Positions 1 through 19,710 of a stretch of DNA of 19,710 nt are shown in pieces. Below the pieces are notes generated by a model. The model was given only the letters and a program-made list of their open reading frames with translations. It was not told where the DNA came from and did not search any database. Every line of letters begins with the position of its first letter. Within the stretch, counting starts at the first letter, position 1. The stretch is from IMG/VR virus record IMGVR_UViG_3300045988_016630, positions 1 through 19,710 of that record. One strand, 5' to 3'. Made by a program: the position numbers and the translations under genes. Origin of the DNA: a virus.

Positions 1-106
1 AGGGGTATGGATTTGTGTGAAGATTTTCCCTTGTGGTTTTTTTTATTTGTGTATTATTTTTTTGTGTTCTGTGTGGTCCTTGACGTTTTGTTTTGTTCAT
101 GCCTCT

Positions 107-135
107 ATTATATTTTTTTTACGCCTGCATGTCAA
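107..135 (-). promoter_or_regulatory. Consensus sigma70/sigmaA-type promoter in ITR-L, firing outward toward position 1
   Basis: The minus strand reads TTGACA (135..130), a 17-nt spacer, then TATAAT (112..107). An A-rich UP-like tract (aaaataaaaaaag) precedes it. Only about 100 nt remain to the genome end. Confidence 0.6.
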
Positions 136-212
136 CTTTTTTTATTTTCGGGCGTGTCGTTTTTTTATTGACGCTGTGTCAATGGTTGTATATGCAACAA
201 TCTGCGTCCGGC

Positions 213-276
213 TAAGTTACGGTTACGTAACCGTAGCTTACTTACCGTCCGGCCGGTAACTGTCTTTTATTTTTTT
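213..276. promoter_or_regulatory. ITR palindrome cluster: 28-bp near-perfect palindrome plus an adjacent hairpin with a T-run
   Basis: TACGGTTACGTAACCGTA (218-235) is a perfect 18-bp palindrome, extendable to 213-240 with one T:G mismatch. TTACCGtccggcCGGTAA (242-259) follows, then ctgtcttttattttttt (T-run to 276) on the inward-reading strand. Confidence 0.5.
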
Positions 277-314
277 GCCTTGTTTTGTTTTTGGGCGTGC
301 TGCCCGTTTGTTTG

Positions 315-323
315 TGTTATGGT
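315..323 (+). promoter_or_regulatory. Candidate inward extended -10 promoter in ITR-L (TGtTATGGT)
   Basis: TGtTATGGT lies about 35 nt upstream of the ATG at 358. It fits the TGnTAnnnT pattern seen at other intergenic sites in this genome. No -35 element was seen. The RBS gagggaaaggaaaaa follows. Confidence 0.3.
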
Positions 324-357
324 GTAGTTATCCGCTTCGAGGGAAAGGAAAAATAAA

Positions 358-558
358 ATGATTAACGATAGCATCATCAAGGATTACGTCGAGGATTACA
401 TCCTGAACAGCGATCAGCAGCTCGATGGCTTCGATATTGATGCGATTGTTGAGGATCTGCATCATGTGGCTTTGGTCAATGGTATGACCATTGAGGAATA
501 TGCCGATTGTGATTCGTTCCCGTCTGATGATTTTATTGAAGCGTTTGAGGAGGCGTGA
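358..558 (+). CDS. Small, highly acidic hypothetical protein (66 aa); DNA-mimic or anti-defence candidate
   Basis: ATG with an ITR-encoded purine-rich RBS (gagggaaaggaaaaataaaATG). Counted by eye: 19 Asp/Glu against 1 Lys. It is the only plus-strand gene and is followed by a strong terminator. Confidence 0.75.
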   Translation: MINDSIIKDYVEDYILNSDQQLDGFDIDAIVEDLHHVALVNGMTIEEYADCDSFPSDDFIEAFEEA

Positions 559-5591: not shown

Positions 5592-5770
5592 TGGTTTGCC
5601 CCTTTGGTTTCGCGGATGAGGGTTTCGAGTTGGTGTATGAGTCGGTCGATCATCACCATTGCCCGATTATATCCGTCGCGCAGATCGGACGGGGTATCGT
5701 CGGTGTAGAGAGGTAGTCCGTAGGTTGTGGTGTGCTCGTACATGTCGCGGTTTTCGTCATTTTCATTCAT
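5588..5770 (-). CDS. Small structural protein (60 aa) carrying only the fibre-type N-terminal anchor motif
   Basis: TYGLPLYTDDTPSDLRDGYNRAMVMID parallels the N-terminus of the 486-aa fibre. ATG 5770 overlaps the upstream stop as ATGA, and its own stop overlaps the fibre ATG as ATGA. RBS gagaggaag. Confidence 0.6.
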   Translation of the reverse strand: MNENDENRDMYEHTTTYGLPLYTDDTPSDLRDGYNRAMVMIDRLIHQLETLIRETKGANQ

Positions 5771-6165
5771 TTTTCTTCCTCTCTGATGTAGATGCAGTTC
5801 CCGCATGAATAAAAATCGGTCACCCCGTCCGTGACTATCGTCCCGGCTTTGGTGGGGTTTTCCCCATTTACAAGCGAGTTGAGAAATGCGATGTACGCGA
5901 CTTTGAGTTGTTCACTCCACACGAGAATGACCTGATCCGCCAACGAGTTTGATGCTGAACCCGTTGGAATGTCGTTTATGGACAACACTGTCCCCCCCGG
6001 TAGTGTTGCCCTCACGTTCGTGCCGTCTGGATCCTTTTGCACGTCGAACCCCGCTTGAGAGCATACTTCATCGAGCGCGATATTAAGCTGGGTTTTAAAG
6101 TCGCGGCCTTCGAAAGTCGCCCCATGAACGGTTATCGAGCTTATCGTTTTTTTAATATCCATCAT
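5767..6165 (-). CDS. Hypothetical tail/structural protein (132 aa)
   Basis: ATGA overlaps on both sides, RBS aagggggaATG. No motif recognised. Confidence 0.65.
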   Translation of the reverse strand: MMDIKKTISSITVHGATFEGRDFKTQLNIALDEVCSQAGFDVQKDPDGTNVRATLPGGTVLSINDIPTGSASNSLADQVILVWSEQLKVAYIAFLNSLVNGENPTKAGTIVTDGVTDFYSCGNCIYIREEEK

Positions 6166-6788
6166 TCCCCCTTCTTTTCATGGACGATGAAATATGTCGC
6201 TTGGGTTCCCGGTGACGTGACTCTGTCGACTGGGATATATCCTTTTTCCGGTGATGTCGGTGGCGGTGTCGGCGGCTGATTCTGAGGTCGGGGCGTTACC
6301 CGCGGTTCTTCGTTGCCGAAAATCTCACGGTTGCCTAACACCGCCCAAGTGATGCAATCATGCTGTGCCGCCTGAGCCGTGGTTACGGTAGCCATCTGAT
6401 TAACCCGCGCGCCGAACACGGCCAATTCGCGGTACATGTCACGATTAGTGTTTTTCGAGTCCTCGTACTTGCCACGTGTCGGATTATAGGTAAGGGCACT
6501 GTCTTCGTATTGTCCGACCTGCCTTTCCAAGTCATCCAGGGTTTCATTGATGCGCTCGAACTGCTCGTTGAAACCGGCTATCAGCTGCTTGATGGCTTCG
6601 ACGTCCGCGTTCTCGTCCTTGGCGAGATTGTCGAGCTGTTCCCCGAGCTGGTCGAGATGCTCGGCCACCTCCTGCACGTATCCTAATACGGTCAACGTGT
6701 CGCGGTACGAGAACGGTTGCACGGTGGTGAAATACCGTTGCCGCGGGTCGATATCCAAGGGGGCGGCGCACATGTTGATTCCGTCCAT
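6162..6788 (-). CDS. Hypothetical structural protein with a coiled-coil-like acidic segment and a Pro-rich C-terminal part (208 aa)
   Basis: Start set to ATG 6788 (ttGGAGGatatATG) rather than the TTG at 6809. Heptad-like EQLDNLAKDENADVEAIKQLIAGFNEQFERINETLDDLERQ. PRPQNQPPTPPPTSP near the C-terminus. Confidence 0.7.
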   Translation of the reverse strand: MDGINMCAAPLDIDPRQRYFTTVQPFSYRDTLTVLGYVQEVAEHLDQLGEQLDNLAKDENADVEAIKQLIAGFNEQFERINETLDDLERQVGQYEDSALTYNPTRGKYEDSKNTNRDMYRELAVFGARVNQMATVTTAQAAQHDCITWAVLGNREIFGNEEPRVTPRPQNQPPTPPPTSPEKGYIPVDRVTSPGTQATYFIVHEKKGE

Positions 6789-16219: not shown

Positions 16220-16228
16220 TTTATATCA
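16220..16228 (-). promoter_or_regulatory. Candidate extended -10 element TGaTATAAA upstream of the SSB gene
   Basis: The minus strand reads gtgTGaTATAAAaag. It overlaps the stop codon of the upstream gene, in an AT-rich intergenic region about 60 nt before the ATG at 16160. Confidence 0.35.
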
Positions 16229-16543
16229 CACGTCTTCGTTATTTTCAACGTCGGCGTGTCTATTTTTTGTGTGCTCTTCTGGATTCCATTCTTGAGGTTC
16301 CTCAAAGGTAGCATATTTGTAGAACGTTTCCTCATTCATTGAGACTTTTTGCGAAAAAATGTTGATGGAACGCGGAATAAAATTCGGAAACAATCTCTTC
16401 GCACGGATTGAATATGCGCGAGCGTCCTTAAGGCGTCCGTCGATAACGTGCTCCGCTCCCATGAAGTCGCCGTCCACCAATTCCATGCCTTTCAGCACGG
16501 CATAGACGCGCGTGCGGAAAATTTCGGTTTTGGTTCTAGCCAA
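16226..16543 (-). CDS. Hypothetical early protein (105 aa), possible phi29 p6-like dsDNA-binding protein
   Basis: TTG start with a strong RBS (GGGAGGtaagaaTTG). It sits directly upstream of the SSB, as phi29 gene 6 does, and has similar size and an acidic C-terminal tail. The resemblance is loose (IFRTRVYAVLKGMELVDGDF vs ITKTTVNVAKMVMVDGEV). Confidence 0.55.
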   Translation of the reverse strand: MARTKTEIFRTRVYAVLKGMELVDGDFMGAEHVIDGRLKDARAYSIRAKRLFPNFIPRSINIFSQKVSMNEETFYKYATFEEPQEWNPEEHTKNRHADVENNEDV

Positions 16544-16546
16544 TTC

Positions 16547-17065
16547 TTACCTCCCTTGCAGTAAGATTTTTTGCAATTCTACGTCATTATATCGTGTCGT
16601 GTCCAGTCTGTCAAAATTTTTAAACACGGCGATAATGAGATTTTCCGCTTGAGGACTATCAAAAACCGTGCAACAGTCATACGACGTAGCACCCTTGACC
16701 GCGCAGACCGCGCACCAGGCAATCAAATTAGGCGGATTGATGGAACCGTCCAAATATTCCACGTCATACGTGCGAGACATTGCGGCGGCGAGCCCGTCCC
16801 CCATACTCAGACCGCCCGCAATCTGAGACACAGTAATCACCGCTTGCGTAAACCACTCACTAGGTGCTTCACGCCACAACTCGCACAACATATTGACGGC
16901 ACGGCAACACGACTCATAGTCACCATATCCAACGTCATACCGTTTCAGATTCAGCTCACGAGTATGTCCACGCGTGGCCTTGACAATACGAGGAGACTCC
17001 ATGATCGCATCGTCAAAGTCACGCATACGGTAAATAGGCCGCCTATCATCACCACGCCTAAACAT
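16547..17065 (-). CDS. Hypothetical early protein (172 aa)
   Basis: ATG 17065 with RBS GAGGAGcgatattATG. Long ORF in the operon frame. No motif recognised. Confidence 0.75.
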   Translation of the reverse strand: MFRRGDDRRPIYRMRDFDDAIMESPRIVKATRGHTRELNLKRYDVGYGDYESCCRAVNMLCELWREAPSEWFTQAVITVSQIAGGLSMGDGLAAAMSRTYDVEYLDGSINPPNLIAWCAVCAVKGATSYDCCTVFDSPQAENLIIAVFKNFDRLDTTRYNDVELQKILLQGR

Positions 17066-17441: not shown

Positions 17442-17690
17442 TCAATCCCTATCCAGTAGTGGGGTATTGGCAATATCGATAGCATCCAGCATCAAATCAA
17501 CCACCTGAGATCCATCCCCAGCATCATACGCACACAAGGCCGACCCGCCACATACACCTCCGCACGGTGTACAAAACTGGACAGCATACCTCAGTTCATA
17601 CCGTTGACCGTGAGGACAATACCACAGGCGCACACCACCGCCCACAAACGGCGACGCAAACACGGCAACATTCATATCATTCCTACACAT
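17442..17690 (-). CDS. Small Cys-rich hypothetical protein (82 aa), zinc-ribbon-like
   Basis: YCPHG...FCTPCGGVCGG suggests a CxxH/CxxC metal site. The ATG lies one base after the upstream stop (TGA-a-ATG). Confidence 0.6.
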   Translation of the reverse strand: MCRNDMNVAVFASPFVGGGVRLWYCPHGQRYELRYAVQFCTPCGGVCGGSALCAYDAGDGSQVVDLMLDAIDIANTPLLDRD

Positions 17691-17691
17691 T

Positions 17692-17862
17692 TCAAAACCT
17701 TTTCACTACAAAACCCAATACGATAGCCACGCACACAATCAGCATGACCAGAAAACACATTGCGTCACGCATATCACGCGGAGCTTCAGAAAACGCTTCA
17801 GCACCCGCAGCAATCAGCATGATCGCAAACAAGCCAACAACTATAGCCATATCAATCATCAT
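17692..17862 (-). CDS. Small membrane protein (two predicted transmembrane helices); start uncertain
   Basis: MMIDMAIVVGLFAIMLIAAGA...AMCFLVMLIVCVAIVLGFVV. ATGs at 17862, 17859 and 17850 flank the upstream stop (17852-17854). The 78-aa TTG version (17928) would overlap the upstream gene by 77 nt. Confidence 0.5.
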   Translation of the reverse strand: MMIDMAIVVGLFAIMLIAAGAEAFSEAPRDMRDAMCFLVMLIVCVAIVLGFVVKRF

Positions 17863-18106
17863 AACACCACGGTCCACTGTTAAAAGCCCGACTAAGCTCT
17901 TGAAAATCAATGCCATGACAATAAGCAATTCCGTCGTCTACGTCGATAAAATCCATAAAAGGCACCCAACGGCCACGGTCTAGATCAAATATTGCAAAAC
18001 GGTAGTCCACACCGCAGTAGTCACATGGATGCTCACACCGCCGAAAACGACGATCTAACCCCGTGAACGTGTCAACAACAGTAAAATAATGCCATTCCAT
18101 GTTCAT
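17852..18106 (-). CDS. Hypothetical early protein (84 aa), Cys/His-containing
   Basis: ATGA overlap with the methyltransferase stop. RBS aaggaagcaaaATG. Contains CEHPCDYCG and YCHG. Confidence 0.7.
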   Translation of the reverse strand: MNMEWHYFTVVDTFTGLDRRFRRCEHPCDYCGVDYRFAIFDLDRGRWVPFMDFIDVDDGIAYCHGIDFQELSRAFNSGPWCYDD

Positions 18107-19021
18107 TTTGCTTCCTTTGATATGTTTTCAAGTCTTCTACCTAGCCAACGCATAACCGGCACGGCCATGGAATTACCTAACACGCCGATTCGCTCACGGT
18201 ACCTTAGACAGTCAGTCCATCCAGGCGGGAAACCCTGGAGCGCTTCGCACTCTTCAGCAGTAAGACGCCTGAAAGGATACCCGCCACCCCAAACGTAGGG
18301 CGGGTCATTGCGATTATGGCGAAGCAATGTCGGGCAAGCGTCGCTCATTGTTGGCGCAGAAGACTGTGTGTCTATGCGACATTGGACTTTATTGCTTCCT
18401 GACAAACGTCTCTCAAGCCTGCTGGCTCGGAGAGCTTCGGCCTTTTGTCCAGCCTTGCAAGTATCCCCCTGCAAGCTTGCACTGTCATAAAGCACGTCGA
18501 CGGCACGTCTCCAATCGTGAGTATTGATGACAAGGTAGATTCTTTTACGTCGTTGGGGTACTCCGAAGTATTGAGCGTCAAGCACTCGCCATGCCCCCCC
18601 CACCCCCGCGAGCACCCCAGAGTTTTGAAACGGAATTAAGCAATGTTGCAAAGTCTCTGCCACCATTGGAAGAGAGTACACCTGGAACGTTCTCCCAGAT
18701 AATCCACTCCGGGTCAATTTCTGCGCAAGCTCGGAGATATTCGAGCATGAGCTGGCCGCGCAGATCATTAAGCCCTTTTCGTGCGCCTGCGATTGAAAAT
18801 GCTTGGCATGGGCTTCCTCCGACCACAATGTTAGCTGTTCCATGGTATTTACTCCAATCTACTTTGGTGACGTCTCCCAGATTGGGAATGTCCGGAAAGT
18901 TTTTTGCTAGGACTTTTGAGGGTGTTTTATCAAATTCGCAGAATGCTATAGGCTCCCAGCCTAATGGCTTCCACGCGACGCTCGCGGCTTCGATACCGCT
19001 AAAAAGGCTTATGTATTTCAT
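18103..19021 (-). pseudogene. C5-cytosine DNA methyltransferase (Dcm-type), split by a frameshift in a G8 homopolymer
   Basis: The N-terminal ORF (19021..18578) carries motif I LFSGIEA, motif IV GGSPCQAFSIAG and motif VI ENVPG. The C-terminal ORF frame (from about 18595 to 18103) carries motif VIII DAQYFGVPQRRKRIYLV and motifs IX/X RRLTAEECEALQGFPPGW and GNSMAVPV. The frames differ by +1. Removing one G from GGGGGGGG (C8 at 18594-18601) gives a continuous ...WGARGGGGAWRVLDAQYFGVPQRR... of about 305 aa. Confidence 0.85.
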
Positions 19022-19122
19022 ATTACCTTTCAGAAGTTTGATGTGATTGAGTCCAGGTTAAAGGATGTAGTCTTCTTGGATTGAACCGTGTGTGTCTGGT
19101 AGTCACCGTATTTAACCTCCAA

Positions 19123-19353
19123 TCAAACAAGCGAAACTTTGACCATGCCAACCATTGTGCCGTCAAGATCAAACGTGGCATTATCAATATCCACACTCAC
19201 ATTACGCCCAACATAAGCGCTACGAACATGAGACAACACGCCATCTAACGACGCTTTCAACGACACTGTATGAAACATGCCACTAGGCTTCACGCAATCG
19301 GGCAGAATCTCGAATACCTGAAAACCGTTTTCGGTGATATTAAAATACCACAT
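19123..19353 (-). CDS. Hypothetical early protein (76 aa), first gene of the right-end operon
   Basis: The ATG and RBS are supplied by ITR-R, identical to those of 358..558. No motif recognised. Confidence 0.7.
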   Translation of the reverse strand: MWYFNITENGFQVFEILPDCVKPSGMFHTVSLKASLDGVLSHVRSAYVGRNVSVDIDNATFDLDGTMVGMVKVSLV

Positions 19354-19387
19354 TTTATTTTTCCTTTCCCTCGAAGCGGATAACTAC

Positions 19388-19396
19388 ACCATAACA
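19388..19396 (-). promoter_or_regulatory. Candidate inward extended -10 promoter in ITR-R, likely start of the early operon
   Basis: Mirror copy of 315..323. It lies upstream of the shared RBS and the ATG at 19353. Confidence 0.3.
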
Positions 19397-19434
19397 CAAA
19401 CAAACGGGCAGCACGCCCAAAAACAAAACAAGGC

Positions 19435-19498
19435 AAAAAAATAAAAGACAGTTACCGGCCGGACGGTAAGTAAGCTACGGTTACGTAACCGTAACTTA
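19435..19498. promoter_or_regulatory. Mirror copy of the ITR palindrome cluster in ITR-R
   Basis: Reverse complement of 213..276, as a consequence of the perfect ITR. Confidence 0.5.
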
Positions 19499-19575
19499 GC
19501 CGGACGCAGATTGTTGCATATACAACCATTGACACAGCGTCAATAAAAAAACGACACGCCCGAAAATAAAAAAAG

Positions 19576-19604
19576 TTGACATGCAGGCGTAAAAAAAATA
19601 TAAT
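19576..19604 (+). promoter_or_regulatory. Consensus sigma70/sigmaA-type promoter in ITR-R, firing outward toward position 19710
   Basis: TTGACA (19576-19581), spacer tgcaggcgtaaaaaaaa (17 nt), TATAAT (19599-19604). The upstream A tract is cgaaaataaaaaaag. TATAAT-agaggc-ATG puts an ATG (19611) at the expected transcription start. Confidence 0.6.
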
Positions 19605-19710
19605 AGAGGCATGAACAAAACAAAACGTCAAGGACCACACAGAACACAAAAAAATAATACACAAATAAAAAAAACCACAAGGGAAAATCTTCACACAAAT
19701 CCATACCCCT

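What the first reader, a model, noticed from the sequence alone, without database searches (positions are those of the whole stretch)
18578..18620. C5-cytosine methyltransferase interrupted in a G8 homopolymer: sequencing error, phase variation or recoding
All canonical Dcm motifs are present but split between two overlapping frames that switch within GGGGG-T-GGGGGGGG (plus-strand C8 at 18594-18601). Deleting one G restores a single enzyme of about 305 aa.

Homopolymer tracts in methyltransferase genes are classic slipped-strand phase-variation switches. A phage-borne methyltransferase is a plausible anti-restriction self-protection device, so an ON/OFF tract would be biologically meaningful.

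The alternatives are a homopolymer sequencing error or a +1 ribosomal frameshift.
Basis: partly seen in the sequence, partly recalled or inferred. Interest (0 to 1): 0.65.

Follow-up and report, generated by a model that had tools for sequence, protein, structure and literature searches.

The report
Slippery G-run switch in phage methylase
A gut Bifidobacterium phage carries a DNA cytosine methyltransferase gene that is switched off here by one extra G in a run of Gs, and related phages in other samples carry runs of 6, 7, 8 or 9 Gs, so the run most likely acts as a natural on/off switch rather than being a sequencing error.

Summary
On the minus strand a C5-cytosine methyltransferase gene (18103-19021) is split at GGGGG-T-GGGGGGGG (plus-strand C8, 18594-18601). 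Removing one G gives a 305-aa enzyme (Pfam PF00145, 5e-48).

The window is a complete 19.7-kb phi29-like Bifidobacterium podovirus with 360-bp inverted terminal repeats. Its capsid protein is 92% identical to that of phage BP1.

About 100 alleles of this gene at 93-96% identity occur in public metagenomes. They sit in podoviruses and in unrelated ~30-kb siphovirus-like phages.
- G7 (in frame) is the commonest state, in about two thirds of distinct alleles.
- G6, G8 and G9 (all frameshifted) recur on backbones 0-1 aa from in-frame alleles.
- Outside the run only one lineage has another frame-breaking indel.
- dN/dS is about 0.22 in both halves, including between OFF alleles.
- A 65%-identity sister clade has its own G8 (ON) / G6 (OFF) pair at the same codons.

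The window's G8 is reproduced in three assemblies, one at 103x coverage.

Verdict: a hypermutable homopolymer, most likely a phage contingency locus toggling DNA methylation, with the window in the OFF state. Sequencing error and programmed frameshifting are unlikely. Non-adaptive recurrent inactivation remains the main rival. It is a new member of a known kind.

The parts
18594..18601 (-). G8 homopolymer (plus-strand C8): the variable run. G7 would be in frame, so G8 is the OFF state.
   Evidence: Sequence. Length polymorphism G6/G7/G8/G9 at this exact site in related loci.
18602..18607 (-). The G5 run (18603-18607) and the single interrupting base (18602; T here, A in other alleles) immediately 5' of the G8 on the coding strand. 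Together they encode the Gly run GGGG(G).
   Evidence: The T/A difference is synonymous in frame A (GGT/GGA).
18578..19021 (-). N-terminal reading frame of the methyltransferase (147 aa) with motifs I, IV (catalytic Cys72) and VI. It ends at a premature TGA at 18578-18580, four codons after the run.
   Evidence: PF00145, 5.7e-32, profile positions 1-132.
18103..18594 (-). C-terminal coding part in the +1 frame (163 codons plus stop). It carries motif VIII (QRRKR), the target-recognition region, motif IX and motif X (GNSMAVPV).
   Evidence: dN/dS is 0.22 across alleles, including OFF-OFF pairs.
18100..19109 (-). A ~1.0-kb cassette (methyltransferase gene plus ~88 nt upstream) shared at 93-97% nucleotide identity with ~30-kb siphovirus-like Bifidobacterium phages. 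It is absent from the cultured relatives BP1 and BD811P2.
   Evidence: BLASTN boundaries. Annotated relatives lack it.
17852..18106 (-). Downstream 84-aa ORF whose ATG overlaps the methyltransferase stop (ATGA). Its expression may be translationally coupled, and so reduced when the switch is OFF (inference).
   Evidence: The coupling itself is inferred and was not tested.
1..360 (.). Left inverted terminal repeat of the linear phage genome.
   Evidence: 360 nt, 100% complementary to 19351-19710.
19351..19710 (.). Right inverted terminal repeat. The methyltransferase is the second gene inward from this end, in the early-gene region.

Best explanation
The G run is a hypermutable simple-sequence repeat (a contingency locus) inside an orphan C5-cytosine DNA methyltransferase gene. 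The gene travels as a ~1-kb cassette among Bifidobacterium phages.

Mechanism: slipped-strand mispairing during DNA replication adds or removes single Gs. G7 gives the full 305-aa enzyme (ON). G6, G8 and G9 shift the frame just before motif VIII, leaving a fragment without the target-recognition domain (OFF). The window is a G8 (OFF) variant of a phi29-like podovirus.

Shown here:
- The run varies in length repeatedly and independently in nature.
- The rest of the gene stays intact and constrained.

Inferred:
- The switching is reversible.
- It is kept because it hedges bets. Methylated progeny would escape hosts' Type II restriction enzymes. Unmethylated progeny would escape methylation-dependent (Type IV) restriction or avoid the enzyme's cost.
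For: 1. DNA-verified run lengths in independent assemblies:
   - G7: L001, L002, L010/L019, L082, L083.
   - G8: window/L009/L017, L003, L004, L020, L084, L085.
   - G9: L005.
   - G6: L006.
2. Protein clusters: 65 distinct full-length alleles, against about 30 distinct frameshifted ones. The frameshifted ones end GGGGHGECL (G6), GGGGGMASA* (G8) or GGGGGHGECL (G9).
3. Switching is recurrent. P0152 (G9) is identical over 136 aa to P0123 (ON). Several G6 alleles and a G8 allele are 1 aa from ON alleles.
4. In a 10-allele DNA alignment the run is the only frame-breaking indel, except in one lineage.
5. dN/dS is 0.235 for the N-terminal half and 0.22 for the C-terminal half. OFF-OFF pairs give 0.22-0.30 for the half that is not translated in them.
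6. Both states occur within the podovirus lineage: L082/L083 are ON; the window and L085 are OFF.
7. A 65%-identity clade has a run at the same codons, G8-T in frame in L022 and G6-T frameshifted in L023. L021 (63% identical) and the 54%-identity homologue L086 have no run.
8. GGG is the rarest glycine codon in this phage, at 12%.
9. The run encodes a Gly turn between a helix and the motif-VIII strand. It aligns as a 4-residue insertion relative to M.HhaI.
10. G-run replication slippage is an experimentally shown ON/OFF switch in the host genus (PMC9187656).
11. Homopolymer contingency loci in a phage DNA-modification gene (T2 agt) trade off between restriction systems (bioRxiv 10.1101/2025.10.21.683753).
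12. Bifidobacterium breve strains carry m5C Type II restriction-modification systems (PMC5829577).
Against: - No reads were available, so heterogeneity within one phage population, reversibility and switching rate are not shown.
- The window's own strain is G8 in every assembly found (10 contigs carry the identical C-terminal ORF). This fits a fixed OFF state as well as a switch.
- A sister podovirus (L018, 6 contigs) has deleted the C-terminal half starting at the run.
- One siphovirus lineage (L007/L008) has an interrupted run plus two further frameshifts.
- Cultured relatives lack the gene. The gene is therefore dispensable and sometimes lost.
- G8 alone is not statistically unusual in the window.
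- Sequencing platforms of the public runs are unknown.
- Methylation, target site and any restriction trade-off are untested.
Confidence: 0.65

Rival explanations
1. Non-adaptive mutational hotspot. The G run is simply the weakest point of a dispensable accessory gene. OFF alleles are recurrent loss-of-function mutations on the way to gene loss, and the window's copy is a young pseudogene.
For: - The window strain is uniformly G8 in all assemblies found.
- L018 deleted the C-terminal half from the run onward.
- L007/L008 has three lesions.
- BP1 and BD811P2 do without the gene.
- The distribution centred on G7, with G6 and G8 next, is what mutation-selection balance would also give.
Against: - dN/dS is about 0.22 in the C-terminal half even between OFF alleles. 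OFF lineages are therefore evolutionarily short-lived or revert.
- No secondary lesions occur in 8 of the 9 distinct allele sequences aligned; L007/L008 is the exception.
- The run persists at the same codons in a 65%-identity clade, although synonymous GGC/GGT/GGA codons would remove it, and GGG is the rarest Gly codon.
- About one third of distinct alleles are OFF, which is high for plainly deleterious mutations.
Confidence: 0.22
2. Sequencing or assembly error. The true sequence is G7 and the extra G is a homopolymer miscall.
For: Homopolymers are error-prone on several platforms. G-run lengths in Bifidobacterium databases are known to be unreliable (PMC9187656). The platforms of the public runs were not checked.
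Against: - An identical G8 appears in the window, in a JGI contig (19,431 nt) and in a SPAdes contig labelled cov_102.9 (19,699 nt), and 10 contigs carry the identical C-terminal ORF.
- The same states are recovered by different assemblers and archives.
- No indels occur at the other G5 or T5 runs of the gene in any OFF allele.
- Four different lengths on many backbones is not an error pattern expected of consensus assemblies.
Confidence: 0.05
3. Recoding. The G8 allele still makes full-length enzyme, by +1 ribosomal frameshifting on GGG-GGG-G or by RNA polymerase slippage on the G run.
For: Runs of identical bases allow tRNA re-pairing and transcript slippage. A low level of such rescue cannot be excluded from sequence alone.
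Against: - Programmed sites are conserved in length and require the shift. Here the commonest allele is simply in frame (65 distinct full-length proteins).
- G6/G9 alleles and G8 alleles would need shifts of different sign.
- No stimulatory element was sought or seen.
Confidence: 0.05

Closest known systems
Phage contingency loci: the A9 run in the coliphage T2 agt (alpha-glucosyltransferase) gene (Gomez, Barrick & Waters, bioRxiv 10.1101/2025.10.21.683753)
   Same: A homopolymer inside a phage DNA-modification gene. Plus or minus 1 frameshifts switch the modification off and back on. The proposed pay-off is escape from restriction systems with opposite requirements.
   Different: There it is an A run in a glucosyltransferase of a large lytic coliphage, with reversion measured in the laboratory. 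Here it is a G run in a C5-methyltransferase of small Bifidobacterium phages, known only from natural polymorphism across metagenomes. No rates or phenotypes are available.
Hypermutable polyG runs of Campylobacter Fletchervirus phages (Sorensen et al. 2021, Cell Rep 35:109214, cited)
   Same: G7-G11 runs in phage coding regions create ON/OFF subpopulations.
   Different: Those runs sit in receptor-binding protein genes and change host recognition. They do not affect DNA modification.
PolyG run in a methylase gene of Bordetella phage BPP-1 (Liu et al. 2004, J Bacteriol 186:1503; known here only second-hand through)
   Same: A phage-borne DNA methylase gene containing a polyG run.
   Different: According to the citing preprint it was noted but never studied. 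I could not read the original, so the degree of resemblance is unverified.
Intragenic G-run replication-slippage switches of Bifidobacterium pilus genes (B. breve UCC2003 bbr_0113 and bbr_1889; PMC9187656)
   Same: Same host genus, and the same mechanism: an intragenic G run whose length decides whether two ORFs fuse. It was shown by error-corrected sequencing.
   Different: Those are chromosomal pilus genes with G10-G12 runs replicated by the host replisome. Here the gene is a phage gene with G6-G9. In the podovirus it is replicated by the phage's own protein-primed polymerase.
Bacterial phase-variable methyltransferases / phasevarions (Type III mod genes of Haemophilus, Neisseria, Helicobacter; polyG methyltransferases of Campylobacter and Helicobacter)
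   Same: Simple-sequence-repeat frameshifting switches a DNA methyltransferase on and off.
   Different: Those are chromosomal, mostly N6-adenine Mod subunits of restriction-modification systems that act as global regulators. This is an orphan C5 enzyme on phage genomes with no adjacent nuclease gene.

Membership tests
C5-cytosine DNA methyltransferase (Pfam PF00145 / TIGR00675 dcm) | Profile score above the curated cut-off | tested here: met
   The restored 305-aa protein scores 164.6 bits on PF00145 (cut-off 22) and 165.9 bits on TIGR00675 (cut-off 100.65).
C5-cytosine DNA methyltransferase (Pfam PF00145 / TIGR00675 dcm) | Catalytic motifs I (FxGxG-type), IV (PCQ with catalytic Cys), VI (ENV), VIII (QRR), IX and X (GNS) | tested here: met
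   FSGIEA, GGSPCQ (Cys72), ENV (110-112), QRRKR (156-160), RRLTAEECEALQGFP and GNSMAVPV are all present. These residues are invariant in a 53-sequence alignment.
C5-cytosine DNA methyltransferase (Pfam PF00145 / TIGR00675 dcm) | One uninterrupted reading frame encoding both domains | tested here: not met
   In the window, motifs I-VI and VIII-X lie in different frames (G8). The feature is met in G7 relatives such as P0001 and P0126.
C5-cytosine DNA methyltransferase (Pfam PF00145 / TIGR00675 dcm) | 5-methylcytosine formation at a defined target site | not testable with these tools
   The target-recognition region does not align with M.HhaI or M.HaeIII. Site counts in the genome were uninformative.
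Simple-sequence-repeat contingency locus (phase-variable gene) | Repeat run within the ORF whose length sets the reading frame | tested here: met
   G7 is in frame; G6, G8 and G9 are out of frame.
Simple-sequence-repeat contingency locus (phase-variable gene) | Run length differs among close relatives, recurrently, while the rest of the gene stays intact and constrained | tested here: met
   Four lengths were verified at DNA level. OFF alleles sit 0-1 aa from ON alleles. No other frame-breaking indels occur except in L007/L008. dN/dS is about 0.22.
Simple-sequence-repeat contingency locus (phase-variable gene) | High-frequency, reversible switching within a clonal population | not testable with these tools
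   No read-level data were available. The window strain is uniformly G8 in the assemblies found.
Simple-sequence-repeat contingency locus (phase-variable gene) | A phenotype that differs between ON and OFF and is selected both ways | not testable with these tools
   Inferred only, by analogy with T2 agt and from the m5C restriction-modification systems of Bifidobacterium.
Programmed ribosomal frameshift site | A conserved slippery sequence at which the shift is required in all or most members | tested here: not met
   Most alleles are in frame without any shift (65 distinct full-length proteins). OFF alleles need shifts of different sign.
Programmed ribosomal frameshift site | A stimulatory element (downstream structure, internal Shine-Dalgarno sequence, or slow codon) | not tested
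   Not examined, because the first criterion already fails.
Phasevarion (phase-variable Mod of a restriction-modification system controlling a regulon) | The methyltransferase is part of a restriction-modification system with a cognate nuclease gene | tested here: not met
   The neighbours are small phage ORFs, or DUF3310 in the siphovirus-like phages. No nuclease gene is adjacent.
phi29-like podovirus (genomic context) | Protein-primed family-B DNA polymerase, gp16 packaging ATPase, gp10 connector, phi29-type capsid and tail-knob proteins, and a linear genome with inverted terminal repeats | tested here: met
   PF03175, PF05894, PF05352, PF25622, PF20934 and PF17427 all hit. The inverted terminal repeat is 360 bp. 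The capsid protein is 91.8% identical to Bifidobacterium phage BP1. No packaging-RNA (pRNA) family hit was found in Rfam.

The most novel reading that the evidence does not exclude
The G run is a selected, portable switch. A ~1-kb cassette made of an orphan C5-methyltransferase with a built-in hypermutable run moves between unrelated Bifidobacterium phage types (phi29-like podoviruses and ~30-kb siphovirus-like phages). Each burst would then contain both methylated and unmethylated genomes. That would be a phage-side epigenetic bet-hedging device against hosts armed alternately with Type II and methylation-dependent restriction. The mutable run itself would be maintained by selection, having been kept or re-evolved in a 65%-identity sister clade.
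Probability: 0.4. Interest if true: 0.7.

Novelty: new member of a known kind. Interest (0 to 1): 0.55.

Why it matters
Phage contingency loci have only recently been proposed, from laboratory coliphages and Campylobacter phages. This locus offers a natural, population-scale example in the human-gut genus Bifidobacterium, and it sits in a DNA-modification gene.

If the switch works as proposed, one phage stock contains methylated and unmethylated subpopulations. That would affect host-range measurements, restriction barriers, and any use of these phages or their methyltransferase to help transform Bifidobacterium.

It also has a practical lesson for annotation. The split gene in this genome should be recorded as a phase-variable gene in the OFF state, not silently corrected or called a pseudogene.

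Tried and rejected
- **Megablast of the gene region against GenBank phages:** no match. The gene is absent from the cultured relatives.
- **Exact-pattern scans for the run with its flanks:** one IMG/VR hit, and none in the JGI metagenome or GTDB genome collections.
- **Protein-guided scan of representative bacterial genomes for a prophage copy, to name the host:** only relatives at 37% identity or less. The host was instead inferred from capsid and portal similarity to Bifidobacterium phages.
- **Protein-guided scan of JGI metagenome contigs:** only distant relatives.
- **Chance test:** G8 alone is not significant, so the argument cannot rest on the run's mere presence.
- **Guessing the target site from palindrome under-representation:** uninformative. 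The PDB sequence search aligned only the catalytic domain.
- **Reading the original Bordetella phage paper:** not held in the library.
- **Rfam scan of the whole window:** no hits.
- **A first attempt at frame repair by alignment-column editing was wrong**. It was replaced by a regex-anchored split of the two halves.
- **Sampling caveat:** the loci I fetched were chosen by protein state, so their ON:OFF ratio is not a frequency estimate. Only the cluster sizes are used for that, and those count distinct proteins, not samples.

Full report
**1. The observation**

The coordinates and sequence are as described. Plus strand 18594-18601 is C8, 18602 is A and 18603-18607 is C5. The coding (minus) strand therefore reads GGGGG-T-GGGGGGGG.

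Frame A (18578-19021, 147 aa) carries methyltransferase motifs I, IV and VI. It stops four codons after the run (...GARGGGGGMASA*). The +1 frame continues from the run to 18103 with motifs VIII, IX and X.

Deleting one G gives a 305-aa protein. It scores 164.6 bits on Pfam PF00145 and 165.9 bits on TIGR00675. It aligns with M.HhaI and M.HaeIII over the catalytic domain.

A G8 run alone is not unusual for this window. Shuffles expect 0.41 runs, and 55 of 200 shuffles have one. Significance has to come from context.

**2. What the window is**

Positions 1-360 and 19351-19710 are a perfect inverted terminal repeat. All substantial genes lie on the minus strand and include:
- a phi29-type single-strand-binding protein
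- a family-B (protein-primed type) DNA polymerase
- a phi29-type major capsid protein
- a gp9-like tail knob
- a gp10 connector
- a gp16 packaging ATPase
- a holin and CHAP-SH3 lysins

The capsid protein is 91.8% identical to Bifidobacterium phage BP1, whose host is B. pseudocatenulatum. It is 84% identical to the B. dentium phages BD811P1-3. These are the only cultured podoviruses of human gut bifidobacteria (PMC12694917).

The window is therefore a complete genome of a phi29-like Bifidobacterium podovirus. The methyltransferase is the second gene in from the right end, in the early region. BP1 and BD811P2 do not have it.

**3. The gene elsewhere**

A search with the restored protein found many alleles at 93-96% identity in public metagenome assemblies. 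At DNA level the run differs between independent assemblies:

| Run | State | Loci |
|---|---|---|
| G7 | in frame | L001, L002, L010/L019, L082, L083 |
| G8 | frameshifted | window, L009, L017, L003, L004, L020, L084, L085 |
| G9 | frameshifted | L005 |
| G6 | frameshifted | L006 |

One lineage (L007/L008) has the run interrupted (GGGGGCGGTGGGG).

The 90%-identity protein clusters hold 65 distinct full-length proteins. They also hold about 30 distinct frameshifted products whose sequences read exactly as expected for G6, G8 or G9.

The states are interspersed on the backbone. Over the 136 residues before the run, P0152 (G9) is identical to P0123 (ON). P0150, P0153, P0157 and P0159 (G6) and P0156 (G8) are each one residue from P0121/P0124 (ON). 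P0160 and P0161 (G6) are each one residue from other ON alleles. The length has therefore changed many times independently.

**4. Is the gene decaying?**

In a 10-sequence DNA alignment, the only frame-breaking indels outside the run are two extra Gs in L007/L008, the lineage with the interrupted run. The one other indel is an in-frame codon.

Nei-Gojobori dN/dS is 0.235 for the part before the run and 0.22 for the part after it. Pairs of OFF alleles give 0.22-0.30 for the part they do not translate. OFF alleles therefore have not sat as pseudogenes for long. Either they revert or they are replaced.

Loss does occur, however:
- A sister podovirus (L018, six contigs) has a deletion that starts at the end of the run and removes the C-terminal half.
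- L007/L008 is a true pseudogene.
- The window's own strain is G8 in every assembly found.

**5. Error or recoding?**

The window's G8 is reproduced at 100% identity in a JGI contig of 19,431 nt and in a SPAdes contig of 19,699 nt labelled cov_102.9. Ten contigs carry the identical C-terminal ORF. Different assemblers and archives recover the same states. Other short homopolymers in the gene show no indels in OFF alleles. A miscall is therefore unlikely, although I could not inspect reads or sequencing platforms.

Programmed frameshifting is contradicted by the data. The commonest allele is simply in frame, and G8 alleles would need a shift of different sign from G6/G9 alleles. Low-level rescue by ribosomal or RNA polymerase slippage cannot be excluded.

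**6. Is the run itself maintained?**

Homologues at 54% identity encode ...PHGGAAW... with GGC-GGG and have no run (L086). L021, at 63% identity, also has none.

A 65%-identity clade does have a run at the same codons. L022 reads GAT-G8-T in frame, and L023 reads GAT-G6-T frameshifted.

GGG is the rarest glycine codon in this phage, at 12%.

The run encodes a Gly-rich turn between a long helix (residues 114-138) and the strand leading to motif VIII in an AlphaFold model (pTM 0.81). It aligns as a four-residue insertion relative to M.HhaI. Two of the glycines are conserved family-wide. That explains G-rich codons here, but not a pure homopolymer.

**7. Mobility**

Nucleotide similarity between the window and the ~30-kb phages is confined to window 18100-19109, at 93-97% identity. 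This is the gene plus about 88 nt upstream.

The ~30-kb phages carry ERF, YqaJ, RusA, SSB, DUF3310, portal and terminase genes, and a GH25-CW_7-LysM lysin. Their portal is 52% identical to those of B. asteroides siphoviruses.

Podoviruses whose backbones are only 82-88% identical to the window share the gene at 96%. The cassette, with its run, moves between phage lineages.

**8. Mechanism and comparison**

The best-supported reading is a simple-sequence-repeat contingency locus, with the window in the OFF state.
- G-run replication slippage is an experimentally shown ON/OFF switch for pilus genes in Bifidobacterium (PMC9187656).
- Phage contingency loci were recently demonstrated in T2/T4. They include an A9 run in the DNA-glucosyltransferase gene agt, which trades sensitivity between two Type IV restriction systems (bioRxiv 10.1101/2025.10.21.683753).
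- That preprint also cites polyG runs in Campylobacter phage receptor-binding genes, and an unstudied polyG run in a Bordetella phage methylase gene.
- B. breve strains carry m5C Type II systems with motifs RTCGAY, CCWGG and GGCGCC (PMC5829577).

By analogy, ON phage would be protected from a cognate Type II enzyme. OFF phage would avoid methylation-dependent restriction or the enzyme's cost. That pay-off is inference.

From my own recollection, not tested here: Actinobacteria lack MutS/MutL mismatch repair. That would favour homopolymer instability.

The methyltransferase stop overlaps the next gene's start (ATGA at 18103-18106). OFF alleles may therefore also lower expression of the 84-aa downstream ORF (inference).

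**9. Verdict**

Sequencing error and recoding are unlikely. The main open alternative is recurrent non-adaptive inactivation of a dispensable gene.

The finding is a new member of a known kind: phase-variable methyltransferases and phage contingency loci. It is of moderate interest because it gives a natural, gut-phage example in a DNA-modification gene on a mobile cassette.

Noticed in passing
window 1-360 and 19351-19710: A perfect 360-nt inverted terminal repeat, so the window is a complete linear phi29-like genome. The repeat is far longer than phi29's 6 bp and is rich in A7-A8/T7-T8 runs.
   Followed up: partly
window 19576-19604 (+), mirrored in the left repeat at about 107-135 (-): A 12-of-12 match to the sigma-70 consensus (TTGACA, 17 nt, TATAAT) lies inside the terminal repeat and points outward towards the genome end. 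In phi29 the packaging RNA is transcribed outward from near one end (from memory). Rfam gave no pRNA or other hit anywhere in the window.
   Followed up: partly
L018 (ENA ERZ27258348, 17.8-kb podovirus) versus window about 17531-18586: A sister podovirus has a ~1-kb deletion whose left breakpoint is at the end of the G run. It fuses the methyltransferase N-terminus to a homologue of window ORF 17442-17690, which itself encodes a GGG stretch.
   Followed up: partly
L007/L008 10001-10920: A siphovirus-like phage allele has the run interrupted (GGGGGCGGTGGGG, in frame) and carries two additional single-G insertions downstream. It is a genuine pseudogene, found in two assemblies.
   Followed up: yes
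L022 and L023, about 6405-6425: A methyltransferase clade only 65% identical, in ~30-kb IMG/VR phage contigs, has its own G run at the same codons. It is G8 in frame in L022 and G6 frameshifted in L023.
   Followed up: partly
window 5992-5998: The only other long G/C homopolymer: a G7 on the coding strand inside the 132-aa ORF 5767-6165 (codons CCG-GGG-GGG-ACA), in the tail/structural region. BP1 and BD811P2 have no nucleotide similarity there. It could be a second slippage-prone site.
   Followed up: partly
window 18100-19109: The methyltransferase gene is more conserved (96%) than the surrounding podovirus backbone (82-88%). It is shared with unrelated siphovirus-like phages, which indicates recent horizontal exchange of a ~1-kb cassette.
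   Followed up: yes
window 16226-16543 (-); BP1 16324-16638: The homologous 105-aa protein of phage BP1 is annotated 'DNA methyltransferase' in GenBank. The window's copy has no Pfam hit, so the annotation looks unsupported.
   Followed up: no
whole window: There are no CTGCAG (PstI-type) or CTCGAG sites, and GGCC occurs at 0.6 of expectation. This may reflect restriction-site avoidance but was not analysed statistically.
   Followed up: no
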